A stretch of DNA of 32,000 nucleotides, from assembly GCF_003351905.1 (NCBI RefSeq), contig NZ_CP022339.1:300001-332000 (forward strand), written 5' to 3'. Source of the DNA: Candidatus Saccharimonadota bacterium (GTDB lineage Bacteria; Bacteroidota; Bacteroidia; Cytophagales; Amoebophilaceae). Below are positions 5,435-31,794 of the stretch, piece after piece. The stretch's first letter is position 1; the number at the start of each line of letters is the position of its first letter. The position numbers were made by a program, and so were the translations under genes. Below the pieces are notes generated by a model that was not told the DNA's origin, ran no database searches, and saw nothing but the letters and a program-made list of their open reading frames with translations.

Positions 5435-6172
5435 GTGAACGAGGCCGGTCAACCTGGTCACGCAGGTGCTGCTCGTGGTAAGATGGTAGCAGATGAAGTT
5501 ATCGAGTTGTCTATTTCAGGTTCATGTTCCTGTGGTGGTCATGTAGCGATATCTTCCAAGCCTTATATTCATCAAAAAGTAGATTTACCCGATATTAAGC
5601 CGCATGTAATCAGTTATCATATGGAGCATGGTCGCTGTAGAAAATGCGGGAAACGCTACACTGCTAGACTTCCTAAGGGTGTTACCTCAGATGCCTTTGG
5701 TCCTAAAATCAAATCAGTGATAGACGCTTTGACTGGCCTTTATAAAAACTCTAAACGAGAGGTAGCTTGTATATTACAAGATATCTTTAATCTAGATATC
5801 AGTCTGGGTAGTATCTCTAATAGCGAGGCTAGGGTAGCTTCAAAATGCAAAACAGCTTACCAAGCTATAGAAGAAACCATTAAGCAAAGTAAAGTACTGC
5901 ATATAGACGAAACGGGGCACAATAATAATGGTAAACTAAATTGGGGTTGGATGTTTACTAACGCTATGGCCAGCCTCCTTAAGCTCACTACTTCCAGAAG
6001 CCGAAAAGTTTTAGAAAGTAGTGGACTGAATCCTAAAGATCACATTGTGATCAGTGATAGATACGCAGTTTACAATTACTTTCCACCCACCCATAGGCAA
6101 CTTTGTTGGTCACATATAGCTAGAGATTTTGAGAGGTTTTCCCATAGTTTCCATAGAGGTGTTAAAGTATAA
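5435..6172 (+). pseudogene. IS66-family transposase fragment (central part, truncated at both ends)
   Basis: GQPGHAG..., a zinc-finger region (CSCGG...GRCRKCGK) and a DDE core (LHIDETG...WGWMF...ISDRYAVYN...CWSHIARDF). About 75% aa identity to the copy at 9115..9945. The N-terminal coiled coil and the C-terminal third are missing. Confidence 0.85.
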
Positions 6173-9114: not shown

Positions 9115-9945
9115 GGAATCTATTACCTCTTTCGGATTGTGTGAAGTAAGAATTTTTACGATATACCACGTAATGCCTAATTTGTCTCTCAGCCAAGTTA
9201 TTGGTCAATGGAACATTGACTGGATCTTGGTAAAATCTCCATAGCATAGGCTCTGCCCGCATTATATTTTTAGCCACACGACTAGCTTGTGCAGCACGTG
9301 GTATCCTGGAAATAGCTTTTAAGCCATACCAGGTCCGTTTACGCAATTTTCTAATGCGTCTTAAAAACGTAACCAACCCCATAGATTGATTCAAGAAAGA
9401 TCGATGCAAGGCAAATAGCTCGCTAGCTATTTGCTTTAAGTAAAAGCCTAATGCTTTAACATCACTGTGCCAACTATGAGCAAACCTTTCAAAATCTCTA
9501 GCTATATGTGACCAACATAATTGTCGATTAGTGCTGGGAAAATAATTATAAACTGCATATCGGTCAGTGACAACAATGTGGTCTCTAGGATTTAAGCCAC
9601 TACTTTCTAAAACTTTGCGACTTCTTGAATGGGTTAACTTAAGTAGACTAGCCATAGGGTTGGTCATCATCCAGGCCCAATTTCGTTTATCGCTATTAAA
9701 GTGGGAGGTCTCATCTATGTGTACCAATTTACTTTCTCTGATCGTTGCTTCTATAGCTTGGTAAGCTTCTTGGCACTTTGCAGCTACTCTAGCTTGGCTG
9801 TTAGATACACTACCTAAACTGATATCTACGTTAAAAATATCTTTTAATATATAAGCTACTTCCCTTTTAGAGTTTTTATAAAAGGCTGTTAAGGAACTAA
9901 TTACCGATTTGATTTTAGGGCCAAAAGTATCTCTTGTAACCCCTT
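9115..9945 (-). pseudogene. IS66-family transposase fragment (5' exon of the intron-interrupted copy; N-terminus replaced by IS3 sequence)
   Basis: Part of ORF 9083..10036. Runs from GVTRDTFGPKIK through the DDE core to LAERQIRHYVVYRKNSYFTQSERGNRF. The last 11 codons of that ORF (RVSRETSMYQ*) are read-through into the intron. Confidence 0.85.
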
Positions 9946-10275
9946 CAAGACTTTTCTTACTTAATAAATCCAAGCTCTTTGGCTTTCCCACCGCCCAATC
10001 TCGCTCAACTGTAGCCTTACCTACAGGCTTTAGCAAAGTTCATCATTTTGATGCTTAAGTGCACTAATTTCGTCTCTATACACACTAACAACCTTTGGTG
10101 GATCAAAGGCTACTGAAGCATTTTCTAAAAACTGACGTTTCCAATTTTGAATGGTTTTACTAGTTACTCCATATTTGGATGATAACTAGACTAACGTTAA
10201 CTCTTCTTTTAGTAAATCTAATACTATTTTAGTCTTTTCTTCCGAGCTAAAATTTCTAAGCTTATTTCTGCCCAT
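9946..10275 (-). pseudogene. IS3-family OrfA (HTH transposase) pseudogene
   Basis: From the ATG at 10275 the frame reads MGRNKLRNFSSEEKTKIVLDLLKEELTLV*LSSKYGVTSKTIQNWKRQFLENAS...ISALKHQNDEL. There is an in-frame TAG at codon 30 (10188-10186) and a frameshift near 10040 before the leucine-zipper tail GKATVERDWAVGKPKSLDL. Confidence 0.7.
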
Positions 10276-10399: not shown

Positions 10400-12175
10400 C
10401 TACTCATACCCGTCTTCCTGGACATATTTATTCGTTAGCATTACTTTACCAGGATTTTTACCAACCAGATCATAACTGGCATAAGCAGCTAGAACTGATT
10501 TCCCAGAAAAAGCAATACCGACTTCTACTACTTCTTGGACATGCGGATAGTGTAATATTTCAGTATGATAGGCTTGATCTTGTATTTGCGATAAGGCAAG
10601 TTTAGCTGCAGTTTCTAGTTCTTCTTCTTTACGCACATGCTTAAATTCCAATAGGAGCGCTTTGGGGCCATCTTTAGGAATAATTAATACATCATAACGA
10701 CCTAGACCGCTCTCTCTATTGGACCGTACATAATGGGTTCTACCCAAGCTTGCCAACATAGCCAGTACAAAACCATGGTAAAATCCTTCTGATTTTCTAG
10801 AAAATTGTGTGTCAAAACAACTAGCACTTTGGCGTAAAAAAAAGCTTAGTTCTTCCACAAAAAGAGATACTGTTCCAGTTACTAAATGTTCTAAAAAAGA
10901 AGTATAAACTCCTTGGTCAACAAACTTACTGCTCAACCATTCTTTAAAGAACCTATTGTAGAGTCTACGTATTTCATTATTGGGAACCTTAACTATACAA
11001 TCGTATAAATCACTATCTAAACTCAGGTTACTTGTTTCAAAGGTTAAATAGCCAGCAAATAAGAGTAAGCTCCATAAAGCAGTTTCATTCGTACCTAACA
11101 AATCAAAAGCAAGATGCTTATCTACAGGAACCGTTAAAGCTTCTCCTTGCATTAATTGTTCGAATTGTTCTTTAAGACTTTCGTTAGAAGAAAGAATCAA
11201 CTGCTTGATTAAATCATTATTACCCGTATTAACCCAATAGACATCAAAACGACCCGATCTATTGATACAAGAAATAATAGACCATGGATTATACATCACC
11301 AAGTTGCCTACTTTATACCCATTGTACCAATTTTTTACTTCATCCATGGAAGTACTAAGATTCGTTTCTTGAAATAAAGAGGAAACTTCGGCTTCGCTAA
11401 AGCCAAAGTGACTACTATATTCTTCATCTAGCAAAGTATAGGTCTCTAGGTTATTCAACCCAGATAACATACTATCCTTTGAAACCCTTAATATACCGGT
11501 TAATACGCCTCGTTCTAGTGTAGTATTGTCTTTTAAAGCAGCACTAAACAGGTTACGCATAAATACGACCATAGCATCCAAATACGGTTGATTACCATAT
11601 GCCTTATTCAATGGTGTATCGTACTCATCTATAAGGATATACACCTTTTGGCCATGATAATTAAAAAGACAAGTACTGAGCAATTCTAAAGATTTTTCTA
11701 GCTGTCGTTGATTAGCCATCCTATTTAAAATTGCACTAAATTCATATCTTTGATCCGAATTAAGTTTATCACTTTCAAGTAAATACTCGAATAATCCATA
11801 AAGCTTCTTTATTAATAAATAAACGGAATCATATGCCCCTTGAAAACTATCTGCATTTATATCCTTAAAACTGATCATAATGACAGGGTACTTTCCTTGA
11901 TGCTCCTTAATGTATTTACCACCTTCTAGCTTACCAATCGCTAAATCATTAAATAAGCCTGTTGTACTTACCCCATTTACTTCTGAAGCAAAAAAATGGT
12001 GCAACATAGACATATTGAGCGTCTTGCCCCAACGACGAGGACGAGTAATTAGGGTAACTTCATCACCCTTGCTCAGGAAATCAACAAGCATGGATGTCTT
12101 ATCACAAAAGAGGTAATCGTTAGATACCAACTTATGAAAATTACTAACCCCTAGTGGTAATTTAGGTTTGTTCAT
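10400..12175 (-). CDS. AAA-ATPase-like N-terminal domain fused to PD-(D/E)XK nuclease (PDDEXK_9-type) protein
   Basis: 591 aa. The N-terminus is LPLGVSNFHKLVSNDYLFCDKT...ITRPRRWGKTLNMSML (Walker-A-like) with YILIDEYDTP (Walker-B-like). The C-terminus is ESGLGRYDVLIIP...ALLLEFK, a PD-(D/E)XK core. Confidence 0.85.
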   Translation of the reverse strand: MNKPKLPLGVSNFHKLVSNDYLFCDKTSMLVDFLSKGDEVTLITRPRRWGKTLNMSMLHHFFASEVNGVSTTGLFNDLAIGKLEGGKYIKEHQGKYPVIMISFKDINADSFQGAYDSVYLLIKKLYGLFEYLLESDKLNSDQRYEFSAILNRMANQRQLEKSLELLSTCLFNYHGQKVYILIDEYDTPLNKAYGNQPYLDAMVVFMRNLFSAALKDNTTLERGVLTGILRVSKDSMLSGLNNLETYTLLDEEYSSHFGFSEAEVSSLFQETNLSTSMDEVKNWYNGYKVGNLVMYNPWSIISCINRSGRFDVYWVNTGNNDLIKQLILSSNESLKEQFEQLMQGEALTVPVDKHLAFDLLGTNETALWSLLLFAGYLTFETSNLSLDSDLYDCIVKVPNNEIRRLYNRFFKEWLSSKFVDQGVYTSFLEHLVTGTVSLFVEELSFFLRQSASCFDTQFSRKSEGFYHGFVLAMLASLGRTHYVRSNRESGLGRYDVLIIPKDGPKALLLEFKHVRKEEELETAAKLALSQIQDQAYHTEILHYPHVQEVVEVGIAFSGKSVLAAYASYDLVGKNPGKVMLTNKYVQEDGYE

Positions 12176-12357
12176 ATGAGATTAATTGGATTTAGCTTTT
12201 GTATCATATAAATGTACATATAATGTAGAATTTTTCTCTGCAGTTTCCAGCTCATTTCTCCTACCAGTTGCAAATGGTTTAGCTGGTCTAAGTGATACGG
12301 CTCGTTTTCAGTTTCCTGGTTCAGATTTCCTATTTACGCTACTATCTGCTTCCTTAT

Positions 12358-12739
12358 ATGGAAAAACATTTGTTAACCACATCACAAAGAAAACCAACTA
12401 GAACATGTTCACTGAATTTGAGCGAGATAATGACCATTATTATTACGTTTCACATAATTGGTTTTAAAAATTTTAAGACTTATTATCTTCATTTACAACA
12501 GTTCCATGCTAATGAGTTTAGTAAACTAGTAAGTTACAATAGGTTCATAGAATTCATTCTAAGAGCCCTGGTTCCTTTATTTTTTTTCACACAAAATCTG
12601 CCTAAAAAAGAAACAGGCTATTACTTTATGGATTCCACGGCCATCAAGGTTTGTAATATCAAAAGAGCCTATTCTCACAAGGTTTTTAAATCAATTGCTA
12701 CTAAAGGTAAAACCAGCATCGGTTGGTTTTTGGGCTTCA
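12358..12739 (+). pseudogene. IS982-family transposase, N-terminal part interrupted by group II intron 2
   Basis: LSEIMTIIITFH..GFKNFKTYY...VSYNRFIEF...FMDSTAIKVCNIKRAYSHKVFKSIATKGKTSIGWFLGF fits the IS982 pattern up to GWFxGF(KLH). Intron sequence starts at 12740. No downstream exon is present in the window. Confidence 0.75.
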
Positions 12740-13625
12740 GTGTGCCGCAGATGTATGCAGTGGAGTTAGAAATGTAAATAACTTCTTTAAATACAGTACA
12801 GCTATGGAAGAGATGAAGGCAGGCCCTTCAGAGTCTGTTTACAGGAGCTGGCTCTAAATCACCTCAAGCGGCTGTGGTAAAAAGCCATGGTCGTGAGCGT
12901 TGAGGAAAAGATGTTGGCTTTGAATGGCATCAGATGTGAATTAAAGAGACGAACGCAAGTAAACCGTTGAAGACGTGTCGAAAAGAACTCGGATGATATC
13001 AAAACCAGCATTTTGATCCGTTCTGGGAGGAGTCCTCTAGCAACCTGTTTACTGAGAGGATGGTATCCGGCATTTAGATGGCGTGACTTTAATTTTGGCT
13101 TTTCCATGGAACTGCGGGAACCTGTCATATTCATGTTAAGGGAGACTCCCAAGGGCAAACTTGTTTCAAGGGATAGAGTACTGATGGAATATACAGGGAC
13201 GGATCAGCCCGTAGTAGTGAAGAAGTTTCTGTAATGGAAATGGAGCAAAGGGGCTGACTTATTCAACGATATTAATAGATCAACCATTGTACGATGGGAG
13301 GAACCTATGAATAAAGTAAAGTCGTATGAAATATCAAAGCATGTGGTGATGCAAGCCTATCAAAACATAAAGGCTAATGCAGGCGCAGCTGGTGTAGATG
13401 GTAAAACGATTGAAGAATTTGAAAGAAATCTTAAAGGGAATCTTTATAAGATCTGGAATCGGATGTCATCTGGGAGCTACTTTCCCCCACCTGTTAAAGC
13501 GGTACCTATACCAAAGAAACAAGGAGGAGAAAGAATACTAGGCGTTCCTACTGTAATGGATAGAATTGCCCAAGCAGTTGCTAAGATCATGTTAGAACCG
13601 AACTTGGAACCCCCTCTGGGGGTTA
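12740..13625 (+). mobile_element. group II intron 2, 3'-truncated (5' RNA domains plus first ~105 codons of the RT)
   Basis: The 5' end is GTGTGCCGCAG at 12740. A structured, ORF-poor leader of ~570 nt follows, then an RT N-terminus. RT blocks beyond RT2, domain V and the 3' end are all missing. The end coordinate is approximate. Confidence 0.65.
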
Positions 13626-14617: not shown

Positions 14618-15094
14618 ATGCAGCTTTTTCACCGGTTAATTAATGCAATAGGTGATGTCAACGTAACAGATAAATCGGAACGTATCGCTCTTTATCTTGC
14701 ATCAGAAGAAAATCTCCCATTAGTAGTCAAGGTCTTGATTGAAGATGGAAGGGCTGATCCAAATAAACAAACTAATTATGGAACTGCTCCTCTTCATGTT
14801 GCATCGAAGCTAGGTTATTCAGCAGTAGTTGAATTATTACTGAGTGCTGAAAATATTGATGTCAATATAAAAAATAAATATGGCTCTACCCCCCTTCATC
14901 TAGCATCTAAATATGGGCACGAAGAGGTAGTCCAACTTTTAATTAAGAATCTAAGGACTAAGGTAGATGAAAAAGACAAAAGTGGAAAGACCGCTCTTGA
15001 CTTAGCCAGCAACCTAGAAGTAGTAAAAATCTTAAAGCGAGCCAATAGAAAACGAAAACTTTACAAAATTGAAGCCCCTAGAGCTAGGCTTTAA
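14618..15094 (+). CDS. ankyrin-repeat protein (ORF-track portion; the ANK frame is open from 14498)
   Basis: Repeated ANK consensus (GTAPLHVASKLGYSAVVELLL, GSTPLHLASKYGHEEVVQLLI, GKTALDLAS). A further GFTPLHWAAL repeat lies upstream of the annotated Met. Confidence 0.88.
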   Translation: MQLFHRLINAIGDVNVTDKSERIALYLASEENLPLVVKVLIEDGRADPNKQTNYGTAPLHVASKLGYSAVVELLLSAENIDVNIKNKYGSTPLHLASKYGHEEVVQLLIKNLRTKVDEKDKSGKTALDLASNLEVVKILKRANRKRKLYKIEAPRARL

Positions 15095-15933: not shown

Positions 15934-17928
15934 GTGCCACGAAGGCCTCCTTTCTAGTGGGTGCAAGTCCCACCCTGGCAATAGGCCTGTTGGCCAGGTA
16001 GCGAGGAGTGCATCTATAAAGAGTAATTTTTGTAGATGAAGCCACTCGACGACGGCTCTGTACAAGGAGCTACGCAAACTGCGGGCCGTACGCAAGGAAC
16101 CTATATGTAGCGCCGTGAAGGTCTTACCAGAGAAATCTGGGAATTGGAGATGCTGAGCCTCTCGTCTGGTGGGCGAAAGCTGTAAAGTGACGGAAAGATA
16201 ACAGGTCAATAACCGTCACTTATCTCCCGGCGTAGCAGGGGCGGCACGTAGGAAAGAAAGGAGGAGAAACGTGGGAGATCCTGCACGGTCTTTAAGTTCC
16301 AAGAGTAAGGAAGGATATAAGGCGCAAGTCGAAGTTCGTTCCGATGCTGTGCAGGAAGTCGGGAAGATAGTAGTAGTGAAGATGGCAAGGACAACAAAAC
16401 CTTACCGGAGCGAAGGATCTTCAGTTTCGTCATGTTTTCAAAACAGGGAAAGATACCATGATTCCGCAAGGTAACCACATGGCACAAAGCGTCCGAGAAC
16501 TGCAGCGAGAACTTTATCGATCTGCTAAGTCTAATCCTAAACGCAGCTTCTACACCCTTCATGACAAAATATATAGATTGGACGTACTGGTCTGTTCATG
16601 GAAACAGGTTTGTGCAAATCACGGGGCACCAGGCATAGATGGAATAACAATAGAACAAATCAAAGAACAAGGGGAAGAAGCGTTTCTTGGACAAGTTCAA
16701 AAAGAACTGGAATCAGGAAGCTACCGAAGCAATAAGACAAAGCGCGTGGAAATACCCAAACCGAAAGGAGGAATAAGAATCTTGGGAGTGCCCACGATTA
16801 AGGACCGCTTAGTACAAACTGCAACCCGTCTTGTTATAGAGCCAATTTTTGAAGCAGACTTCCAAGAATGCTCATTTGGGTTTCGACCTAAACGATCCGC
16901 AGTCCATGCAAGTCTATCAATATATAAATGGCTTAATTACGGGCTCACCCAAGTTTTAGATATTGATTTGAAGCGATACTTTGACTCAATCCCACACGAT
17001 AAGCTTATGAAAGTCATTCAAAAGCGAATCAGTGATAGGTATGTTCTAAAGTTAATACAAGCCTGGCTTCGCTCAGGAGTCCTTAAAGGCGAAGAAGTTG
17101 CTACTCGACAAGGATCCCCTCAAGGGTCCCCCATTTCGCCCTTACTTTCTAATATATACCTGAATCTGCTAGACACAGTATGGGTCAAGCGGATGACCGA
17201 AAGGAATGGGTGGAATGCACAGATTGTCCGCTATGCGGACGATCTCGTGATAGTGTCGAATAAACCGGTAGAGAAGATTTTGGGTATTTTATGTGGGTAT
17301 CTGCAACGCTTGGGCCTTTCGATCAATGAAGAAAAGAGTCGAATGACCACGGCCGAAGAAGGTTTCAATTTCTTAGGGTATGCCTTTAAAAGGGGATACT
17401 CGCCAAGATATCAGAAACCCGTTACCCATATGTATCCTACACCTGATGCAATCAAGCGGATTATTAAGAAAGTCACGCAATTGACCTATCGGAACCGGTT
17501 GCACGAAAGTGTTGAAACTATTGTTAAAGACTTAAACGCATCCTTACTGGGGTGGACGGAGTATTACCGTCACACGGCCAGTTCTAGGAGATTTAGGAAA
17601 GTACAAGGGCATGCAAACAGGCGTCTGAGAAGATTTATCATGAAAAAGAAAGGGAGTAGGAAGAACGGGTATAAGGAACTCCCCGACGAGAAGCTCCACA
17701 AAGTGTACAAATTAGTCAATGTAGGAGCTTATCGGGTGCGATACAGATGGACGTAATGCAGACGAAGAAGACGATCCGTGCGCCGTATGAGGGAAAACCT
17801 CACGTACGGTGCGACGGGGGGGTGCTGGAAACGGGAAAGAGAGATTGGGTTATTTAGGCACGAAATCGGAAACGATGGACACGGATAAACCTGGTCCTAT
17901 ACTTCACCGCGCCAGTGCTCTACTCTAC
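15934..17928 (+). mobile_element. group II intron 3 (full length, ~2.0 kb)
   Basis: The 5' end is GTGCCACGAAGG...AGTGGGTGCAAGTCCCAC, parallel to intron 1's AGTAGGTGGAAGTCCTAC. Domain V is at ~17779-17813 (GCGCCGTATGAGGGAAAACCTCACGTACGGTGCG). The 3' terminus ACCGCGCCAGTGCTCTACTCTAC (to 17928) parallels intron 1's ACCGCGCCATTTCTCGACCCTAC. Boundaries are good to +/- a few nt. Confidence 0.8.
16458..17756 (+). CDS. ltrA: group II intron reverse transcriptase/maturase
   Basis: 432 aa. RT blocks are present (GAPGIDGITIEQI, RILGVPTIKDRLVQ, FQECSFGFRPKRS, DIDLKRYFDSIPH, GSPQGSPISPLLSNIYL, IVRYADDLVI) together with the maturase X motif LLGWTEYY. Confidence 0.93.
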   Translation: MIPQGNHMAQSVRELQRELYRSAKSNPKRSFYTLHDKIYRLDVLVCSWKQVCANHGAPGIDGITIEQIKEQGEEAFLGQVQKELESGSYRSNKTKRVEIPKPKGGIRILGVPTIKDRLVQTATRLVIEPIFEADFQECSFGFRPKRSAVHASLSIYKWLNYGLTQVLDIDLKRYFDSIPHDKLMKVIQKRISDRYVLKLIQAWLRSGVLKGEEVATRQGSPQGSPISPLLSNIYLNLLDTVWVKRMTERNGWNAQIVRYADDLVIVSNKPVEKILGILCGYLQRLGLSINEEKSRMTTAEEGFNFLGYAFKRGYSPRYQKPVTHMYPTPDAIKRIIKKVTQLTYRNRLHESVETIVKDLNASLLGWTEYYRHTASSRRFRKVQGHANRRLRRFIMKKKGSRKNGYKELPDEKLHKVYKLVNVGAYRVRYRWT

Positions 17929-18608
17929 CTTTTAAACTAGCTCGCTATGGACAGGAAAGGGGATTGAAAGCTAATTACAGCTATTATATTACAACAGATC
18001 GGCTTAAAAGGCAACAACAAAGAAGAGAAGAGCTGGTAGCTACATTAAGCAATGAAAAGAAACGGTTACACCATAGCCAGACTAATATAGATAAAGAAAG
18101 CATAGAAAGGCATATCGATTTTTTAGAAAAAGAAATAAAAATTATTGATAAAGCGTTAAATAAAACCATAACTACTGATAAGGATCTAGACGAAAAGGCT
18201 AATATACTAGAAACCATTCCAGGAATCGGGAAATGTTTAGCCACTAAATTAGTCAGTTTTTTACCTGAATTAGGTGATAGAAGCTACAGTAGTAATCAAC
18301 TATCAGCTTTAGTAGGTATAGCACCATATGCGGCTGATAGTGGGAAAAAACAGGGAAAAAGATTTATTAGGGGAGGAAGGAAAATACCACGAGATGCACT
18401 GTATATGGCTGTATTAGCAGGGAAAAAGTGGTTCCTATATTTAAAAGAATGCTATGATAGATTAGTAGGTAAATATAAGCCTAAAAAAGTGGCTATCGTA
18501 GCATGTATGAGGAAGCTCCTAGAGCTGGCGCATAAGCTTATACAACAAAAAAGAAGCTTCGTCAAAAGTATCAAAAACGAGTACAAAATGACTAAAAAAC
18601 TTGCATAG
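17929..18608 (+). pseudogene. IS110-family transposase, C-terminal (Transposase_20) half only
   Basis: LARYGQ..., LETIPGIGKCLATKLVSFLPELGD, SSNQLSALVGIAPYAADSGKKQGKRFIRGGRKIPRDALYMA, KPKKVAIVACMRKLLE. The frame is open back to the intron 3' end. The N-terminal DEDD domain is absent. Confidence 0.82.
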
Positions 18609-25535: not shown

Positions 25536-28500
25536 CTACACCGCGGCCTTTTGATGGTAGATCTCCAATGCCTGTTTAGCTGCTTGTGACAAGGCTTCTG
25601 CTATTTCACTACCCAAATATTGCTTGGCCAGCACCACATCTACAATCAGGGTTTCATAAGCCATATATTTTACCTCCTCTAATAGGGTATACCCAAAGGC
25701 ATGACGTAGGTCATACAACCGTTCGGCCAGTTTAATAAAAAGAACAGAAAGCTGTACGTGATCTTCTTTAATTGCTTCCTTTAATCGATTCTGAACATAA
25801 AGCAAAGAAGGATGATCTAAGGATTGGCGCTTATCTACCCCTACCACATTCAACACACAGGCATAGACCCCTAAATTATAATGTTCCTTAACATAAGAAA
25901 GCGGTAAACAAGTATGACGCACCAACTCATAAAGCAAAGCAGCATAAATTACCTTAGGTGAATGAAACGCCCATTCTATTACCAATTCGGCAATACCTAT
26001 CACACGTATATAAAACAATTGGCCAGAGGCATGGCGCTTCAAGCCAAAGTGTTGCCTGAGTAATAAAAGCAGATTGGAAATCATACCTACATCAATAGGA
26101 TCCACTTTACAAGAGGACCTACAGACATAATCATGGAACTGCATTAAGGCCATCATTGCATCTGCCTGTTCCTTAGGTGTAACAGGGGCTGCTGAAGTCA
26201 AGCAATCTATAGGTAGCCTAGCCATCATCTTATCACGAATTTCTGTGACATCAATAGGCAGTACCAGTAACATAGTGCATGGCTTACCATCAGCAGGATA
26301 TTCTACATATCCATAGTGGGCATAAACTATACTGGCTATAGTCTCTTGCTGTAAATCGATAGATGGGCGCACTGCCTGCTTCCCTTCTGACCCCATAGTG
26401 CCTACTTGATCACTATACAAAGGCTTTACCTTCGGCAACGCCTCAGAAGAAATGGAAACATTACGTACTACCCACCCAATAGCCTGAAAAAGCATCCAAT
26501 CAGGCACGCTACTATCTATAGCATCTGCGCGTTTAAATTGCAAAGCCGTGGCATGCAATTGAATGCTTACAATCGGTGAGATAGAGCCATCTAACCTACC
26601 ACTCACCCGTAAAACTGCCTGTACCAATGAATAGACTACTTGATGGACATCACATACCATATGGGAAGCTAACACACCACTAGGATCGACCGTTTGTTCT
26701 ACCAATAACCTAGGCGGATCAGCTACCTCCTGGGACAGGGTAGACTCTAGTTTGTTAATCAATTGGTCTAAACTAATCTTATCAGGCTGTAACAAGGCAT
26801 GCGCTTTGGCTTGCTCCTTCTTACTGAAATAAGCCACCCAATCATAGAGCTTATTGATAATACTCTGGAAGTCTTGCTTACAAAGGGGCATATTGCTATC
26901 TAAAAAGGAGATAGCTTCCTCCATTTTATGGACTGCTTTTCCTAAAATAGATCCATATCTCCTAGATAGACCCAAACCAATAGGAGAGGCCATAGCTGCG
27001 TCATAAAGTGCTTCTTTGTGTTTTTGGGATGCACGCATTTGTGCGCTATCTTTTAAATAACCTACTTGGTCAAAGCAAGCGTTGATTTTACCTTTCAGGT
27101 AAATAAAAATACCCAAAATAAGTAACCCAAATCCCAAACAAAGCAGCAACAACAACGCTACACCTAAGGGCGATAGCATCAATAGGAATGGCTTGGTACA
27201 ATATATAGCGCTACAATAGATTGTCATACACAACGTAACCATTACAAAGCTAACACCCAGATATAAAGGAAACACCAACAAGGTAACCGCCAAGTGGGCC
27301 AAAGACAAACCTACATTCAACAAAAGTGGGGTACCCTGCCACCAATGCCAAATTGCATTGATAGGCAAGCAAAAAGATAAGCCTATAACCCAGATCAAAC
27401 CCAATAACCAACCGGGCATAGATTTTGGTATTGCTGGCAGAAATGTTTTATACCCTAAAAAGCAAGCGCCTACTAAAAGTTGTGCCATAAGCCAACCACC
27501 ATGATCCATAATAGAGGCTATACAATAGACCAATAAATTAGTGAGGACTATATAAATCCCCGTATAGGTCAATGCAACATGGCTGGGTTGAAGCTTCGCC
27601 AAGGTAGCTTTGATATCTATCAAACCATTTTTAATGGCTTCTTTTTGCGCGCGCTGCTTACGCACATGTACTTGTTTCATTTGTATACATGTACGATCTG
27701 GGCCTATCCAACCTGTATTTTCCGGCTGCTTGAATAGATAGTGGGCCACCATCATGGCTAGACCATTGGCTACCATACAAATAAAAGAACCATTGATAGC
27801 CGTTTTGGGTTCAATCCACTGATTCCAAGCTAGAATAGATACGATGCCTGTACCCATACCAATCAAAGCGGTACGAGCAGTACCCCGAAAGCCCAACACA
27901 GCCAAGATAAAAGGAGCGGTTGCAATGGGAAGCGAAAAATCTAAACTTAATTTGAGCAAATTCAATAGATCATTGCAATAAAAAGTCAATACCATAGCCA
28001 ATACACCTATGCCTATACTCGTCCACATGGCCAACCGGAGCTGGTGCGCATAAGGTGCTTTCTCTGGACCTCGTATACTCTGCAACATATCATGACTAAT
28101 CATCACTGCACAAGCGTTTAGCTTAGAATCAGCTGTGGACATCGCCATAGCCAACAAACTGATACAAACCATGCCTTTAAAAACAGGAGGAACATGCGCC
28201 ATGATATACCCCCAAATAGCCGTCACGGGTAAGTCTGGTGCAGCTACAAAAACAAATAGGCCAATGAGCATGATCAATAAGGTGATGACAAAGCTGAAAA
28301 TTGTGGCATATAAAAACACCTTGCCAGCTTGCATCGTACTAGAAGACATATAGACGCGCTGTAGAGTTGGAGGCTCTATGTAACCCATTAAAAAACTTAA
28401 CAAAAGCAAACACATCGCCACTAGATTCATATCAAAATGCAATACTGTACGCAATTGAAATTTTTCCTGGCTTTGTAAAAAAGGAATGATTTCTGTAACG

Positions 28501-29117
28501 GATTTACCGGTGCTTTTAAGCATAAACCATGCTAAAATAGGAATAATGATGGCAAAAGTGATAAATTGTAATACATCTGTAAAAGCAACTGCACGAATGC
28601 CTCCAAAACTAGAATAACCTATCAAGATTACAGTCACCACAACCGTAATCGCTTTGGGATGCACGGAATCTAAACAGAGACTAATGGCCAAGGACATGGC
28701 ACTGATTTGCATCGCAATCGTAGCAATCGCATCGCAAATACCAGATAACGCTGTAATGATTCGGGCATATTTTCCATATACGCTACCCATCGTTTCTGGC
28801 ATAGAAAGATGACCCATAAACCGACCCATGTATAAGGCCAACTTACTGATAATATAGAGATCAAACCCAGCCAAAAGATCCAAGATGATCCAATAAAGGC
28901 CAAGTTGATGCACCTGCTGTACATTGCGCATCAAACCTCCTTCTCCATAAGCAGTAGCCAATACAGTGGCCACCAAAGTAGCGGTAGCAAACTGCCTATT
29001 GCCTACAGCATATTGCTGAAGGGAAGTAATCTTTCGACTAAAATAAATACCAACCACTAAAGTCAATAATAGAAAAGAAACCACCATAAAAAGGGGTATA
29101 TCTAAAAAAGATGCCAT
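25536..29117 (-). CDS. sodium:solute symporter (SSF) fused to additional TM helices, a degenerate histidine-kinase-like region and a degenerate RelA/SpoT-type HD domain
   Basis: Uninterrupted 1198-aa ORF. The ATG at 29117 is preferred over the TTG at 29132. There is an SSF core (GGIRAVAFTDVLQF and others), a second hydrophobic block, then cytoplasmic motifs described in the findings. Confidence 0.8.
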   Translation of the reverse strand: MASFLDIPLFMVVSFLLLTLVVGIYFSRKITSLQQYAVGNRQFATATLVATVLATAYGEGGLMRNVQQVHQLGLYWIILDLLAGFDLYIISKLALYMGRFMGHLSMPETMGSVYGKYARIITALSGICDAIATIAMQISAMSLAISLCLDSVHPKAITVVVTVILIGYSSFGGIRAVAFTDVLQFITFAIIIPILAWFMLKSTGKSVTEIIPFLQSQEKFQLRTVLHFDMNLVAMCLLLLSFLMGYIEPPTLQRVYMSSSTMQAGKVFLYATIFSFVITLLIMLIGLFVFVAAPDLPVTAIWGYIMAHVPPVFKGMVCISLLAMAMSTADSKLNACAVMISHDMLQSIRGPEKAPYAHQLRLAMWTSIGIGVLAMVLTFYCNDLLNLLKLSLDFSLPIATAPFILAVLGFRGTARTALIGMGTGIVSILAWNQWIEPKTAINGSFICMVANGLAMMVAHYLFKQPENTGWIGPDRTCIQMKQVHVRKQRAQKEAIKNGLIDIKATLAKLQPSHVALTYTGIYIVLTNLLVYCIASIMDHGGWLMAQLLVGACFLGYKTFLPAIPKSMPGWLLGLIWVIGLSFCLPINAIWHWWQGTPLLLNVGLSLAHLAVTLLVFPLYLGVSFVMVTLCMTIYCSAIYCTKPFLLMLSPLGVALLLLLCLGFGLLILGIFIYLKGKINACFDQVGYLKDSAQMRASQKHKEALYDAAMASPIGLGLSRRYGSILGKAVHKMEEAISFLDSNMPLCKQDFQSIINKLYDWVAYFSKKEQAKAHALLQPDKISLDQLINKLESTLSQEVADPPRLLVEQTVDPSGVLASHMVCDVHQVVYSLVQAVLRVSGRLDGSISPIVSIQLHATALQFKRADAIDSSVPDWMLFQAIGWVVRNVSISSEALPKVKPLYSDQVGTMGSEGKQAVRPSIDLQQETIASIVYAHYGYVEYPADGKPCTMLLVLPIDVTEIRDKMMARLPIDCLTSAAPVTPKEQADAMMALMQFHDYVCRSSCKVDPIDVGMISNLLLLLRQHFGLKRHASGQLFYIRVIGIAELVIEWAFHSPKVIYAALLYELVRHTCLPLSYVKEHYNLGVYACVLNVVGVDKRQSLDHPSLLYVQNRLKEAIKEDHVQLSVLFIKLAERLYDLRHAFGYTLLEEVKYMAYETLIVDVVLAKQYLGSEIAEALSQAAKQALEIYHQKAAV

Positions 29118-29137
29118 AGCTAAATACGTCAATTAAT

Positions 29138-30395: not shown

Positions 30396-31025
30396 GTGTT
30401 GCGTTTTAGATTTTTAAAAGTTTCAGTAACGATCGATCTGAGTTATTGGATCTTTTTATTGTTGGTAATGGGTAGTATAGGCGGACGATATACTGAAAGC
30501 TTACTATGGTCTAGTATCTTTACTTTTAGTATACTTATACATGAATATGGCCATGCATTAACTGCTCTTTTTTTTGGTGCGACACCTACTGTTGTACTGC
30601 AAGCTTTGGGTGGAAGAACCATCTTTAATGAATCACAGCTAACGGACAAACAAAAATTTTTCATTACCCTTGCAGGACCGCTGTTTCAAGGATTACTGAC
30701 ATTAGTGGCTTATCTATTGCTGCAATGTAATATGGTAAGTGGCTACTTATTGAACTATTTGCTCTCCGTGACGATGTATATCAATAGTAGATGGTTGTTA
30801 TTGAATTTAATACCTATTGCACCACTGGATGGTGGCTGGCTGGTGCGTTATATTCTAGAAAAAAAATTTGGTCATAAAGGGTATGTAGCTAGTCTGATCA
30901 TCGGGCTGACCGCTGCTGCTATTGCGATTCCTTGCTTTTACCTTCAAGGATACCATTGGTTCTTTATCATGCAGCTCTTTATATGTGGATGGCATTACTG
31001 TAAACGCTTGGAACAAGAATGGTAA
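30396..31025 (+). CDS. M50-family (site-2 protease-like) membrane metallopeptidase
   Basis: HEYGHALTALFFGA (HEXXH in a TM helix) and NLIPIAPLDGG (the NxxPxxxLDG motif). The protein is polytopic and hydrophobic. GTG start. Confidence 0.8.
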   Translation: MLRFRFLKVSVTIDLSYWIFLLLVMGSIGGRYTESLLWSSIFTFSILIHEYGHALTALFFGATPTVVLQALGGRTIFNESQLTDKQKFFITLAGPLFQGLLTLVAYLLLQCNMVSGYLLNYLLSVTMYINSRWLLLNLIPIAPLDGGWLVRYILEKKFGHKGYVASLIIGLTAAAIAIPCFYLQGYHWFFIMQLFICGWHYCKRLEQEW

Positions 31026-31044
31026 CACGACAAAATCTGATCGT

Positions 31045-31794
31045 ATGAAATGGAAATTTGGTTTGTTGGACAAAGAACAGCTAGCAGTGATGGGGCTGGT
31101 GCTGATGGCAATGGCTTGCAAAAGAAAGGCACCTAGATATGAGCCAAAGCTTCCTGGAGGTCAAGAAAATATATCCAACTCCATAATGGAAGCAAGTTGG
31201 ACCCAGGGACCTCAAAGTAGACCCAAAGACGCGCAAGCAGTAGATGAGGATTGGTATACCAAATTGAAAATCACACCAGAGGGAAAAATGCTGTTAAAGC
31301 ATAGTAGGGATCAGGACCTCAAGCCCTTATATATAGCGCCAGATGAAGATCCAGATGCACAAAATGACTGGCATACACGCATAGAAGCCAGCCTAACGAC
31401 AGCAAACCATAAAGATAGCGGCCCATTGCGTAACCTGCCTGATGCATTACTGGTTAATTTTCCAAGAGCGCAAGGGGATGATCCTTGGGACAAACGTATA
31501 TTAATGGACATAGCCTCTATAACCATTAGCGCCAACCCAGTAGCCCCCAACTCGGAAAGACATACTTTTGCTTTAACCGCATTTGTAGCGGAGATGCCAA
31601 AAAATCGCGGTAAAAGGCTTTTAATTGTTTACGTAAAAAAGGATCAGGAATGGTATTTTTATAAAAATAATGATCCGCAAGCCGAGGATGCTACTTGCAA
31701 GCAGGATAGCAATAAAAAGCATCTTTCTACTATAAACGCGATGCGTTTCGCATCAGAGGCAGGTATCCTCTTTTTGTACCAAAAAATTAGATAG
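31045..31794 (+). CDS. hypothetical exported/lipoprotein-like protein with weak resemblance to the C-terminal half of USP-type deubiquitinases
   Basis: The ATG at 31045 gives MKWKFGLL...VMGLVLMAMAC (a signal-like sequence). The longer ORF-track start overlaps the M50 gene. The C-terminal pattern is FALTAFVAE...WYFYKNND...GILFLYQKI. Confidence 0.5.
   Translation: MKWKFGLLDKEQLAVMGLVLMAMACKRKAPRYEPKLPGGQENISNSIMEASWTQGPQSRPKDAQAVDEDWYTKLKITPEGKMLLKHSRDQDLKPLYIAPDEDPDAQNDWHTRIEASLTTANHKDSGPLRNLPDALLVNFPRAQGDDPWDKRILMDIASITISANPVAPNSERHTFALTAFVAEMPKNRGKRLLIVYVKKDQEWYFYKNNDPQAEDATCKQDSNKKHLSTINAMRFASEAGILFLYQKIR

What the first reader, a model, noticed from the sequence alone, without database searches (positions are those of the whole stretch)
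25536..29132. Symporter fused to a pseudo-kinase and a pseudo-(p)ppGpp-hydrolase domain
The first ~480 aa are a standard sodium:solute symporter core. The ORF continues without a stop into about six more hydrophobic helices. A cytoplasmic region follows (DNA roughly 26250-26750) whose layout is collinear with a DHp/HATPase_c sensor-kinase module. Its N-box Asn and glycine boxes are replaced (VCDVHQVVYSLVQAVLRV; WVVRNVSISSEALPKV; SIDLQQETIASIVYAHYGYVEYPADGKPCTMLLVLP). The last ~200 aa (DNA ~25540-26160) are collinear with the RelA/SpoT HD hydrolase domain. AALLYELVRHT (about 25912-25945) stands where the family has AALLHDvvEDT, so the His-Asp metal dyad has become Tyr-Glu. IKLAERLYDLRHA (about 25702-25745) stands where the family has IKLADRLHNMRTL. 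SSF-histidine-kinase fusions (CbrA type) are known, but I do not know of an SSF + dead kinase + dead HD architecture. Both enzymatic modules look inactive. That suggests a transceptor or scaffold that couples solute transport to nucleotide or alarmone sensing rather than to catalysis.
Basis: partly seen in the sequence, partly recalled or inferred. Interest (0 to 1): 0.8.

Follow-up and report, generated by a model that had tools for sequence, protein, structure and literature searches.

The report
Symporter with dead kinase and hydrolase
An insect endosymbiont (Cardinium) gene encodes a sodium/solute transporter fused to a histidine-kinase core and a (p)ppGpp-hydrolase domain that have both lost their catalytic residues yet are strongly conserved, so the transporter probably keeps two former enzymes as a regulatory tail.

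Summary
Window 25536-29132 (-) is one intact 1198-aa ORF, 100% identical to a protein of the Cardinium endosymbiont of Sogatella furcifera.

**Architecture**
- SSF symporter core.
- Six extra TM helices.
- A DHp/CA-like module without the H-box His, N-box Asn, G1 or G2.
- A RelA/SpoT-type HD domain whose Mn2+ ligands and ED dyad are replaced (H..HD..ED..D to R..YE..RH..E).

**Evidence**
- Profile, profile-profile and fold searches all support both homologies.
- A sister family (~930 aa) has the same SSF+6TM fused to a real HisKA/HATPase_c.
- Relatives, including Amoebophilus Aasi_0939, keep an intact HD.
- All 87 full-length Cardinium-type proteins examined carry the same replacement set.

**Not decay**
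- The pseudo-HD is the most conserved domain among paralogues (65% identity, against 55% for SSF).
- Its dN/dS is 0.05-0.14.
- The family has 3-12 copies per Cardinium genome and is reported as highly expressed.

**Interpretation**
It is most likely a working importer with a non-catalytic dimerising and regulatory tail. Whether that tail binds an alarmone or another nucleotide is untested.

**Novelty**
The SSF+HD architecture is already in databases and mentioned in passing in papers. I found no description of the double pseudoenzyme nature or the kinase ancestry. I rate it a new variant of a known kind.

The parts
25536..29132 (-). Whole gene: 1198-aa ORF plus stop codon. The TTG at 29132 is the first possible start. 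The ATG at 29117 is the likely true start and gives the 1193-aa NCBI protein.
27735..29132 (-). Sodium:solute symporter (SSF/SLC5, LeuT-fold) core, residues 1-466. The Na2-site Ser/Thr pair S332/T333 is conserved.
   Evidence: Pfam SSF E=3.5e-15. TIGR00813 E=2.8e-18, below its cutoff. SiaT 5nv9 by sequence. Foldseek to SiaT 5nva: TM 0.85, rmsd 3.2 A. S332/T333 are nearly invariant.
27582..27734 (-). Basic cytoplasmic connector with an amphipathic helix, residues 467-517.
   Evidence: AF2 secondary structure shows helix 480-513. The sequence is KQVHVRKQRAQKEAIK.
27093..27581 (-). Six additional transmembrane helices, residues 518-~680. The same six are found in the sister SSF-6TM-histidine-kinase family.
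   Evidence: hydropathy; AF2 helices; collinear BLASTP P0112 vs P0278
26796..27092 (-). Long helix continuing from the last TM (to residue 714), followed by a DHp-like helical hairpin (726-742 and 749-779). There is no conserved phospho-acceptor His.
   Evidence: AF2; profile hits to the DHp of ThkA, AdeS and ZraS; hhalign places the kinase H-box opposite non-conserved residues; alignment
26223..26783 (-). CA (HATPase_c)-like alpha/beta domain, residues 784-970. The N-box Asn is Gln (SLVQAV), and the G1 and G2 boxes are absent. The conserved CD828 motif, AHYGY (938-942) and P959 correspond to the kinase 'D..N-box helix', 'HGG' and 'LP' positions.
   Evidence: no Pfam HATPase_c hit
25542..26177 (-). 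Pseudo-hydrolase domain of the RelA/SpoT (RSH, HD_4) type, residues 986-1197.
   Evidence: Pfam HD_4 E=7e-5; clade profile vs Rel structures E=3e-13; Foldseek 6s2u
25995..26012 (-). YIRVIG (1041-1046). R1043 replaces the first Mn2+-ligand His (the position of RelSeq His53; the intact relatives read YLHPIA).
25911..25937 (-). LLYELVRHT (1066-1074). Y1068-E1069 replace the HD dyad, and R1072-H1073 replace the catalytic ED pair (relatives read LLHDTVEDT).
25707..25733 (-). KLAERLYDL (1134-1142). E1137 replaces the fourth Mn2+-ligand Asp, and Y1140-D1141 replace His-Asn (relatives read KLADRLHNM). This motif is diagnostic of the Cardinium-type clade.

Best explanation
The gene encodes a working Na+/solute-symporter-type importer of an obligate intracellular bacterium. 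It carries a selectively maintained but non-catalytic cytoplasmic tail made of two former enzymes.

Shown here:
- The domain order is SSF core, six extra TM helices, a long helix continuous with the last TM, a DHp-like hairpin, a CA-like domain, and an RSH-type HD fold.
- The kinase-like part descends from, or is sister to, the real kinase core of an SSF-6TM-HisKA-HATPase_c family. It has lost the H-box His, N-box Asn, G1 and G2.
- The HD part has lost all four Mn2+ ligands and the ED dyad. Relatives, including Amoebophilus Aasi_0939, keep them.
- The replacement residues (R1043, Y1068, E1137, R1138, Y1140, D1141) are fixed across all 87 full-length Cardinium-type proteins examined.
- The pseudo-HD is the slowest-evolving part of the protein.

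Inferred:
- The protein dimerises through the DHp-like hairpin, as histidine kinases do.
- The TM-to-DHp helix couples the state of the transporter and 6TM domain to the tail, or the reverse.
- In relatives with an intact HD, this coupling links solute transport to (p)ppGpp hydrolysis.
- In Cardinium the tail no longer catalyses anything. It serves as a shared binding and regulatory handle for a small phosphorylated ligand or a protein partner. That handle would control a battery of paralogous importers (at least five copies in this genome) whose transport domains have diverged, probably towards different host metabolites.
For: Domain identities.

Catalytic residue loss:
- All 87 Cardinium-type sequences have the signature R-Y-x-x-x-E-R-Y-D (two have H for the second Y and one has W for the R), against H-H-D-E-D-D-R-H-N in the 13 intact relatives.
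- No conserved H-box, N, G1 or G2 residues are present.

Selection:
- Mean pairwise identity among the 87 proteins is 0.65 for the pseudo-HD, 0.55 for SSF and 0.34 for the extra TM helices.
- Paralogues are 75-81% identical in the pseudo-HD but 55-65% in SSF, whichever genome they come from. This argues against within-genome gene conversion.
- dN/dS is 0.05-0.14 for the pseudo-HD, 0.11-0.16 for SSF and 0.21-0.30 for the kinase-like module.

Transporter probably functional: the Na2-site S332/T333 pair is nearly invariant.

Expansion and expression:
- There are 3-12 loci per Cardinium genome.
- Amoebophilus has 19 putative sodium/solute symporters that are regulated across its life cycle (PMC8831229).

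A continuous helix from the last TM to residue 714 leads into the hairpin.

The new pocket gains two Arg (H to R at 1043, E to R at 1072) where the enzyme holds Mn2+ and acidic residues. That is compatible with metal-free binding of a phosphate-bearing ligand; this last point is inference.
Against: - No experiment or ligand-binding evidence exists for any member of the family.
- The DHp-like hairpin and the last TM helix are only moderately confident in the model (pLDDT 53-75), and no dimer was modelled.
- Foldseek TM-scores to kinases are modest (0.39-0.51 normalised to the target).
- Strong conservation could equally reflect a purely structural or assembly role.
- I could not establish whether this Cardinium still makes (p)ppGpp.
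- Catalytic HD residues have also eroded, in different ways, in several other lineages of the family. That fits simple relaxation of the catalytic requirement as well as it fits a new function.
Confidence: 0.6

Rival explanations
1. Plain nutrient importer. The tail is a structural relic needed only for folding, membrane insertion, oligomerisation or stability. It senses nothing and signals nothing.
For: Both catalytic sites are gone. HD catalytic residues have eroded independently in other lineages. The literature treats these proteins simply as symporters.
Against: The pseudo-HD is more conserved than the transporter itself. Its former active-site positions carry a fixed new residue set over sequences down to about 32% identity. 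A mere scaffold would not be expected to fix the pocket residues.
Confidence: 0.2
2. Partner-recruiting pseudokinase. As with RetS-GacS or DivL, the DHp/CA-like module acts by heteromerising with another protein: a paralogue, a real kinase, or another regulator. The pseudo-HD is part of that interface.
For: The fold search returns the pseudokinases RetS (6dk7, 7n0e) and DivL (4q20) among the best matches. Many paralogues share nearly identical tails in one cell.
Against: No partner is indicated by gene neighbourhood. The flanking genes are housekeeping and differ between orthologous loci on one side. The ranking of RetS and DivL reflects the common kinase fold and is not a specific similarity.
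Confidence: 0.1
3. The HD domain is still an enzyme that uses different, metal-independent or altered chemistry on another substrate.
For: The replacement residues are invariant and polar or charged (R, Y, E, R, Y, D), which is what a remodelled active site would also look like.
Against: All four metal ligands and the ED pair, which in RSH hydrolases bind Mn2+ and are implicated in catalysis, are replaced. By established knowledge, mutating single residues of this set abolishes hydrolysis in RelSeq and in SAH proteins (for example the D54A mutant of ATfaRel; PMC7229694).
Confidence: 0.05
4. Decaying pseudogene or an assembly/frameshift fusion of separate genes.
For: Cardinium genomes are rich in IS elements and gene fragments. 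Truncated copies of this family do exist (for example P0057, P0067, P0295; PMC12039267).
Against: The reading frame is intact. Full-length collinear homologues occur in many independent assemblies. dN/dS is 0.16-0.21 overall. Synteny is conserved. Expression of the family has been reported.
Confidence: 0.01

Closest known systems
SLC5/STAC sensor kinases CbrA and CrbS (Pseudomonas, Vibrio): 'transceptors' that fuse an SSF transporter to a histidine kinase
   Same: An N-terminal SSF/SLC5 transporter domain is fused in one polypeptide to a DHp/CA-type cytoplasmic module. The idea that the transporter state is relayed to a cytoplasmic signalling domain is also shared (PMC7096432, PMC7918813, PMC13022988).
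   Different: CbrA and CrbS use a STAC domain (and PAS) as connector and have active kinases that phosphorylate response regulators. Here the connector is six extra TM helices, the kinase motifs are all lost, and an RSH-type HD domain follows. The SSS review does not mention any HD or SpoT fusion.
Unnamed SSF-6TM-HisKA-HATPase_c family (~930 aa; P0275, P0278, P0280, P0282, P0283, P0285-P0287, P0292; some from Rickettsiaceae MAGs)
   Same: It shares the same SSF core and the same six extra TM helices. Alignment is collinear through the whole kinase core (32% identity over 931 columns, E=4e-131; hhalign probability 93%).
   Different: These proteins keep the H-box (HEAHTP), N-box (NLIINA), G1 (DEGIGIP) and G2 (GGRGVGL) and end after the CA domain, with no HD domain.
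Intact-HD members of the same family, e.g. Amoebophilus asiaticus Aasi_0939 (P0297); their HD was filed as 'rickSpo[H]' small alarmone hydrolases by Atkinson et al. 2011
   Same: The architecture is identical: SSF, 6TM, kinase-like module, HD. Identity over the full length is 26-28%.
   Different: They keep GEPFYLHP, LLHD(T/I)VEDT and KLADR(L/M)HN, so they are predicted to be active (p)ppGpp hydrolases. The window protein has R, YE..RH and E..YD at those positions.
The catalytically inactive N-terminal HD (pseudo-hydrolase) domain of E. coli RelA
   Same: It is an RSH-family HD fold that has lost hydrolase catalytic residues but is retained as a structural and regulatory domain (established knowledge; Atkinson 2011, PMC3153485, describes RelA as a monofunctional synthetase with a divergent HD).
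   Different: RelA's pseudo-HD sits next to an active synthetase on a ribosome-binding protein. Here there is no synthetase domain, and the pseudo-HD is tethered to a membrane transporter.
Pseudo-histidine kinases RetS and DivL
   Same: They have a DHp-CA fold that works without canonical autophosphorylation chemistry, and they are among the best structural matches.
   Different: They retain most ATP-binding-fold motifs and act on known partners (GacS; DivK/CckA). Here the G1 and G2 boxes are absent altogether and no partner is known.
KimA-type LeuT-fold transporters gated by a nucleotide second messenger (c-di-AMP)
   Same: This is a functional analogy only. A LeuT-fold transporter has a cytoplasmic domain that binds a signalling nucleotide and controls transport. 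KimA (8b70) appears among the structural matches of the transporter part.
   Different: The transporter family, the cytoplasmic domain and the ligand all differ, and there is no homology between the tails.

Membership tests
Sodium:solute symporter family (SSF/SLC5, Pfam PF00474, TC 2.A.21) | Significant match to the family profile over the whole core | tested here: met
   PF00474 matches residues 41-429 over profile positions 1-406 of 406, 56.2 bits against a cutoff of 22.8. TIGR00813 gives E=2.8e-18 but falls below its strict cutoff.
Sodium:solute symporter family (SSF/SLC5, Pfam PF00474, TC 2.A.21) | LeuT-type fold of the core | tested here: met
   The full-length AF2 model (pLDDT 83.6) superposes on SiaT 5nva with TM 0.85 (target-normalised) and rmsd 3.2 A over 477 columns. 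CHT1, SGLT1/2, NIS and vSGLT follow.
Sodium:solute symporter family (SSF/SLC5, Pfam PF00474, TC 2.A.21) | Na2-site Ser/Thr pair in the helix carrying the (A)xxS(S/T) motif | tested here: met
   The query AMAMST aligns to the SiaT AAAQSS segment. S332 and T333 are at least 90% conserved across the family. The assignment of the SiaT residues to the Na2 site is from memory of Wahlgren et al. 2018.
Sodium:solute symporter family (SSF/SLC5, Pfam PF00474, TC 2.A.21) | Na+-coupled solute transport | not testable with these tools
   The substrate is unknown. Database names such as 'PutP' and 'glucose cotransporter' are generic.
Sensor histidine kinase core (HisKA PF00512 + HATPase_c PF02518) | Match to the Pfam HisKA / HATPase_c profiles | tested here: not met
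   No hit for the protein at E<=10, nor for any of the 16 family members' middle regions.
Sensor histidine kinase core (HisKA PF00512 + HATPase_c PF02518) | DHp helical hairpin followed by a Bergerat-fold alpha/beta domain, homologous to kinases | tested here: met
   Family profile vs PDB: ThkA 8.7e-6, AdeS 2e-3, ZraS 5e-3. Foldseek: ZraS, CckA, HK853, RetS and DivL at E 1e-6 to 1e-5, probability 1.00. hhalign vs real SSF-kinase cores: probability 93%, E=3.5e-7, 223 columns. Collinear BLASTP.
Sensor histidine kinase core (HisKA PF00512 + HATPase_c PF02518) | Conserved phospho-acceptor His in the H-box | tested here: not met
   The kinase H-box aligns to a non-conserved, low-confidence segment (around residues 715-735). 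H733 of this protein is D or G in its closest paralogues.
Sensor histidine kinase core (HisKA PF00512 + HATPase_c PF02518) | ATP-binding N-box Asn, G1 (DxGxG) and G2 (GxGxG) boxes | tested here: not met
   The N-box position is Gln (SLVQAV). G1 and G2 are replaced by unrelated sequence in every member. Some intact-HD relatives still have the N-box Asn, but none has G1 or G2.
RelA/SpoT-homologue (RSH) hydrolases / small alarmone hydrolases (HD_4 PF13328) | Match to the HD_4 profile above the curated cutoff | tested here: not met
   23.0 bits against a cutoff of 27.2 (E=7e-5) for this protein. Most paralogues carry a precomputed PF13328 hit. The clade-only profile hits Rel hydrolase domains at E=3e-13. 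Homology is therefore secure even though this copy is below the threshold.
RelA/SpoT-homologue (RSH) hydrolases / small alarmone hydrolases (HD_4 PF13328) | All-helical HD fold of the Rel/Mesh1 hydrolase domain | tested here: met
   Foldseek to T. thermophilus Rel 6s2u: E=2e-4, rmsd 3.9 A over 209 columns. The helical secondary structure is well predicted except for an insert at 1101-1123.
RelA/SpoT-homologue (RSH) hydrolases / small alarmone hydrolases (HD_4 PF13328) | Mn2+ ligands H...HD...D (RelSeq H53, H77, D78, D144) | tested here: not met
   R1043, Y1068, E1069 and E1137 occupy these positions by alignment to Rel structures and to intact relatives. The RelSeq residue numbers are from memory of Hogg et al. 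2004.
RelA/SpoT-homologue (RSH) hydrolases / small alarmone hydrolases (HD_4 PF13328) | Catalytic ED pair and the DRLHN motif | tested here: not met
   ED is replaced by R1072-H1073, and DRLHN by ERLYD.
SLC5/STAC sensor kinases (CbrA/CrbS type) | STAC domain linking SLC5 to the signalling domains | tested here: inconclusive
   Pfam found no domain between SSF and HD_4. The model shows six TM helices there instead of a soluble four-helix bundle. I did not check whether the Pfam copy holds a STAC model.
SLC5/STAC sensor kinases (CbrA/CrbS type) | Active kinase with a cognate response regulator | tested here: not met
   Kinase motifs are absent. No response-regulator gene is adjacent.

The most novel reading that the evidence does not exclude
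The pseudo-HD is a dedicated, non-hydrolysing receptor for (p)ppGpp or a related phosphorylated nucleotide. It is built into every member of a battery of 3-19 host-metabolite importers in Amoebophilaceae symbionts. One cytoplasmic alarmone signal would then gate all nutrient uptake at once. The family would record a stepwise conversion from kinase-transceptor, to transporter-tethered alarmone hydrolase, to transporter-embedded alarmone sensor.
Probability: 0.2. Interest if true: 0.8.

Novelty: new variant of a known kind. Interest (0 to 1): 0.6.

Why it matters
Transporter-sensor fusions ('transceptors') are rare, and only the CbrA/CrbS type has been studied. This family shows a second route. 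An SSF-kinase lineage swapped phosphotransfer for an alarmone-hydrolase output. Then, in Cardinium, it lost that chemistry as well while keeping the domain under the strongest constraint in the protein.

These genes are among the most expanded and most highly expressed in Cardinium and Amoebophilus. Both are uncultivable symbionts that import nearly all their metabolites. The function of these genes is explicitly stated as unknown in the literature.

If the tail is a regulatory input, it points to how such symbionts coordinate nutrient uptake with their physiological state. It would also offer a clean natural pair, intact in Amoebophilus and dead in Cardinium, for studying how an enzyme becomes a pseudoenzyme.

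It also corrects annotation. Papers and databases call these proteins 'spoT / bifunctional (p)ppGpp synthase-hydrolase' or 'PutP'. The Cardinium copies have no synthetase domain and no hydrolase active site.

Tried and rejected
- **Pfam and NCBIfam on the single protein:** no kinase domain was found. Only family profiles and structure revealed it.
- **The search for related loci with the divergent alignments A2 and A4:** The pseudo-HD alignment A3 worked.
- **Does Cardinium still have a (p)ppGpp synthetase or long RSH?** I could not answer this.
  - Literature searches gave only mis-annotations of this same family.
  - The supplementary tables of Jimmy et al. 2020 are not held.
  - The tools cannot scan one named genome.
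- **'Free-living' label, rejected:** I first labelled the intact-HD relatives 'free-living Bacteroidota' and now reject that label.
  - One contig carries an ATP/ADP translocase, and another carries ankyrin and contractile-injection genes.
  - The 'Roseivirga sp.' record is only 1.45 Mb.
  - Amoebophilus itself belongs to the intact group.
- **Gene conversion, rejected:** I considered it as the cause of the high pseudo-HD identity. Paralogues from other genomes are just as similar in that domain, and dS there is not reduced.
- **Second copy or fragments in the window:** none found.
- **NJ tree:** it is crude (BLOSUM distances, no support values). I use it only to say that the Cardinium-type clade groups together.

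Full report
**1. The observation**

The ORF listing finds a single 1198-aa ORF at 25536..29132 on the minus strand.
- It is 100% identical to a 1193-aa 'Sodium:solute symporter family protein' of the Cardinium endosymbiont of Sogatella furcifera, on a 1.10-Mb record. The window is therefore a piece of that Bacteroidota endosymbiont's chromosome.
- The five extra residues come from a TTG directly after an upstream stop. The ATG at 29117 is the likely start.
- About 90 homologues from independent assemblies align over 96-100% of the length.
- The closest homologue from another assembly (P0003) sits next to the same FNR-like oxidoreductase and M50 peptidase genes.
- The long ORF is therefore real and not a frameshift or assembly artefact.

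**2. The transporter part**

- Pfam SSF covers residues 41-429 (E=3.5e-15).
- The best solved relative by sequence is the sialic-acid symporter SiaT.
- A full-length AlphaFold2 model (mean pLDDT 83.6, pTM 0.73) superposes on SiaT with TM 0.85 and rmsd 3.2 A. CHT1, SGLT1/2, NIS and vSGLT follow.
- The Ser/Thr pair that aligns to the SiaT SS pair (S332/T333) is nearly invariant in the family. Assigning that pair to the Na2 site is from my memory of the SiaT paper.
- After a basic connector (467-517), the model and the hydropathy profile show six more TM helices (518-~680). The last one continues as one long helix to residue 714.

**3. The middle module (about 700-970)**

Single-sequence Pfam scans find no HisKA or HATPase_c, either in this protein or in any of 16 family members, even at E<=10. 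Four other lines of evidence show that it is a histidine-kinase core.

(a) A profile of the module hits solved kinases: ThkA at 8.7e-6, AdeS at 2e-3 and ZraS at 5e-3. The alignments run from the DHp through the N-box helix.

(b) An AF2 model of residues 690-1198 (pLDDT 74) has a helical hairpin followed by an alpha/beta domain.
- Foldseek returns only DHp-CA structures at the top: ZraS, CckA, HK853, RetS and DivL, at E 1e-6 to 1e-5 with probability 1.00.
- TM-scores are modest (0.39-0.51), as expected when the hairpin and the globular domain are oriented differently.

(c) The nearest relatives of the SSF domain outside the family are ~930-aa proteins.
- They have the same SSF core, the same six TM helices and a genuine HisKA+HATPase_c.
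- hhalign of my module against their kinase cores gives probability 93%, E=3.5e-7, over 223 columns.

(d) One BLASTP alignment between an intact-HD family member (P0112) and such a kinase (P0278) runs without a break from residue 20 to 926. It has 32% identity and E=4e-131, and ends exactly at AHYG / AHNG.

In these alignments the kinase motifs face unrelated, non-conserved residues:
- the H-box (HEAHTP);
- the N-box Asn (NLIINA), which faces SLVQAV here;
- G1 (DEGIGIP);
- G2 (GGRGVGL).

What survives is structural: D828, the AHYGY motif (H939 and G941 are invariant) at the kinase 'HGG' position, and P959 at the kinase 'LP' position. 'Pseudo-kinase' is a fair name.

The module is rare. A profile search of 1.84 billion representatives finds only 337 proteins at E<=1e-3. 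All full-length hits have the same ~1150-aa layout, and the shorter hits I inspected were N-truncated fragments.

**4. The C-terminal domain (986-1197)**

- Pfam HD_4 matches at E=7e-5, just under the curated cutoff.
- A profile made only from Cardinium-type sequences hits the hydrolase domains of B. subtilis Rel (3e-13), RelSeq (1.6e-10), other long RSHs and Mesh1.
- The model matches T. thermophilus Rel (rmsd 3.9 A over 209 columns).
- Relatives at 26-28% identity read GEPFYLHP, LLHDTVEDT and KLADR(L/M)HNMRT. That is the full RSH hydrolase signature.
- The window protein reads GQLFYIRV, LLYELVRHT and KLAERLYDLRH.
- By alignment, R1043, Y1068, E1069 and E1137 stand at the four Mn2+-ligand positions, and R1072-H1073 stand at the catalytic ED pair. 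The equivalence to RelSeq H53/H77/D78/D144 and E81/D82 is from memory of the RelSeq structure paper.
- The dichotomy is clean. All 87 full-length Cardinium-type sequences examined carry R-Y-x-x-x-E-R-Y-D, with H for the second Y in two and W for the R in one. All 13 relatives in that set carry H-H-D-E-D-D-R-H-N.

**5. This is not decay**

| Measure | pseudo-HD | SSF core | kinase-like module | extra TM helices | source |
|---|---|---|---|---|---|
| Mean pairwise identity, 87 Cardinium-type proteins | 0.65 | 0.55 | 0.40-0.49 | 0.34 | |
| Identity of this protein to paralogues | 0.75-0.81 | 0.55-0.65 | - | - | |
| dN/dS, this gene and its two closest homologues (one a positional orthologue) | 0.05-0.14 | 0.11-0.16 | 0.21-0.30 | 0.21-0.27 | |

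- The paralogue figures hold whether the paralogue is in the same genome or another one. Together with an unreduced dS in that domain, this argues against gene conversion.
- The former active-site positions are themselves invariant over sequences down to about 32% identity.
- The diagnostic motif [IV]KL[AT]ER[LW]YD occurs at 62 loci in GTDB species genomes. All are in Cardinium (3-12 per genome), apart from one Amoebophilaceae MAG.
- This genome has at least five copies: P0001, P0011, P0017, P0031 and the truncated P0057.
- Published transcriptomes report 12 putative sodium-solute symporters in Cardinium cEper1. [quoted passage not shown]
- Amoebophilus asiaticus has 19 such genes that are regulated during the infection cycle, 'function currently unknown' (PMC8831229).

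**6. Evolutionary frame**

- Amoebophilus asiaticus Aasi_0939 (P0297) has the same architecture with an intact HD.
- Atkinson et al. 2011 counted 15 RSH proteins in Amoebophilus as 'Rel[HS] + rickSpo[H] expansion' (PMC3153485). That genome therefore has a long Rel alongside many of these hydrolase domains.
- Other intact-HD carriers also look host-associated. One contig has an ATP/ADP translocase, another has ankyrin and contractile-injection genes, and the 'Roseivirga sp.' record is only 1.45 Mb. I do not call them free-living.
- In a crude NJ tree of the SSF+6TM region, rooted on the kinase family, the Cardinium-type proteins form one clade nested among intact-HD proteins.
- A few other members show different, partial erosion of the HD motifs (P0179, P0153, P0183, P0198, P0199, P0200).
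- The most economical history has three stages:
  1. an SSF-6TM-kinase;
  2. loss of the kinase motifs and gain of an RSH hydrolase;
  3. in the Cardinium lineage and some Amoebophilaceae MAGs, loss of the hydrolase site with fixation of a new residue set.

**7. How it most likely works**

Shown:
- the domain order;
- both homologies;
- both losses of catalytic residues;
- purifying selection on every domain, strongest on the pseudo-HD;
- the expansion into paralogues with divergent transport domains and near-uniform tails.

Inferred:
- The protein dimerises through the DHp-like hairpin.
- The continuous helix from the last TM couples the membrane domain to the tail.
- In intact-HD relatives this coupling ties solute transport to (p)ppGpp hydrolysis.
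- In Cardinium the tail is a non-catalytic regulatory handle common to a set of importers.
- In the old pocket, Mn2+ ligands and acidic residues have been replaced by two arginines, tyrosines and a His or Tyr. This suits metal-free binding of a phosphorylated ligand, but I have no evidence of binding.

The main rival is that the tail is only structural. I could not determine whether this Cardinium still synthesises (p)ppGpp, and that question decides whether an alarmone can be the ligand.

**8. Comparison with what is known**

- The closest studied systems are the SLC5/STAC kinases CbrA and CrbS (PMC7096432, PMC7918813, PMC13022988). They share the idea of a transporter fused to a kinase-type module. 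They have active kinases and a STAC connector, and they lack an HD domain.
- The closest precedent for a dead RSH hydrolase domain is the N-terminal domain of RelA.
- The closest precedents for dead kinases are RetS and DivL.
- The SSF+HD_4 architecture is precomputed in databases. [quoted passage not shown]
- I found no description of the kinase-derived module, of the loss of the hydrolase site, or of its conservation. The SSS-family review does not mention such fusions.
- I therefore rate it a new variant of a known kind, with interest 0.6. It is a well-supported and unusual double-pseudoenzyme transporter in biologically important symbionts. Its mechanism is still inferred, and the bare architecture is already on record.

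Noticed in passing
window 7293-8600 (-) and 16458-17756 (+): Two different group II intron reverse-transcriptase/maturase ORFs (RVT_1 + GIIM). The second lies in a stretch where G+C rises to 0.457 (16-18 kb). I did not look for the intron RNA domains.
   Followed up: no
window 2710-3786 (-), 5435-6172 (+), 9083-10036 (-), 12292-12777 (+), 17964-18608 (+): A dense set of transposase genes and fragments (IS256/Mutator, two IS66 pieces, DDE_Tnp_1_3, IS110) occupies the first 19 kb. This is typical of Cardinium genomes.
   Followed up: no
window 10400-12175 (-) and 4144-5397 (-): An AAA-ATPase_like + PDDEXK_9 (DUF1703-type) protein and a second PDDEXK_9-only ORF. This family is reported as expanded in Cardinium cPpe (24 copies) and proposed as MITE-like fragments in cTPut (PMC6232779, PMC12039267).
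   Followed up: no
window 14618-15094 (+): A small ankyrin-repeat protein (158 aa). This is a class of candidate host-interaction effectors in Cardinium and Amoebophilus.
   Followed up: no
window 30396-31025 (+) and 30922-31794 (+): The M50-peptidase ORF overlaps by about 100 nt a 290-aa ORF that I did not scan against any library. An 88-aa antisense ORF (30855-31121) is also listed. The start of the downstream ORF may be mis-set.
   Followed up: no
proteins P0275, P0278, P0280, P0282, P0283, P0285-P0287, P0292: An apparently undescribed family of ~930-aa SSF + six-TM + genuine HisKA/HATPase_c sensor kinases without STAC. Some come from Rickettsiaceae MAGs. P0290 also carries a receiver domain. 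P0281, from a 'Rickettsia endosymbiont of Glossina', has only the SSF hit. The family's presence in unrelated intracellular bacteria hints at lateral transfer.
   Followed up: partly
proteins P0179, P0153, P0183, P0198, P0199, P0200: Outside the Cardinium clade, isolated family members show different partial losses of the HD catalytic residues (for example H to R/N, HD to YG/HN/KD, DRLHN to SRLHD/ERLHI/NCLYN). The hydrolase site seems to have eroded several times independently.
   Followed up: partly
L066 5475-6917 (+), directly upstream of the P0109 gene: A stand-alone 480-aa SSF gene lies in tandem immediately upstream of the 1151-aa fusion gene. The same contig also carries an ATP/ADP translocase (TLC) gene.
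   Followed up: no
L067 10479-15200 (-): Next to the intact-HD family member P0122 lie a 1573-aa contractile-injection-system tape-measure protein (CIS_TMP) and an ankyrin protein. This suggests an Amoebophilaceae-like symbiont with a T6SS-iv/AFP-type system.
   Followed up: no
window residues 1101-1123 of the target protein (DNA about 25764-25832): The pseudo-HD of most Cardinium-type proteins has an insert (DKRQSLDHPSLLYVQNRLKEAIKE...) in place of the shorter segment in intact relatives. It is the only low-confidence part of the domain in the model (pLDDT about 40).
   Followed up: no
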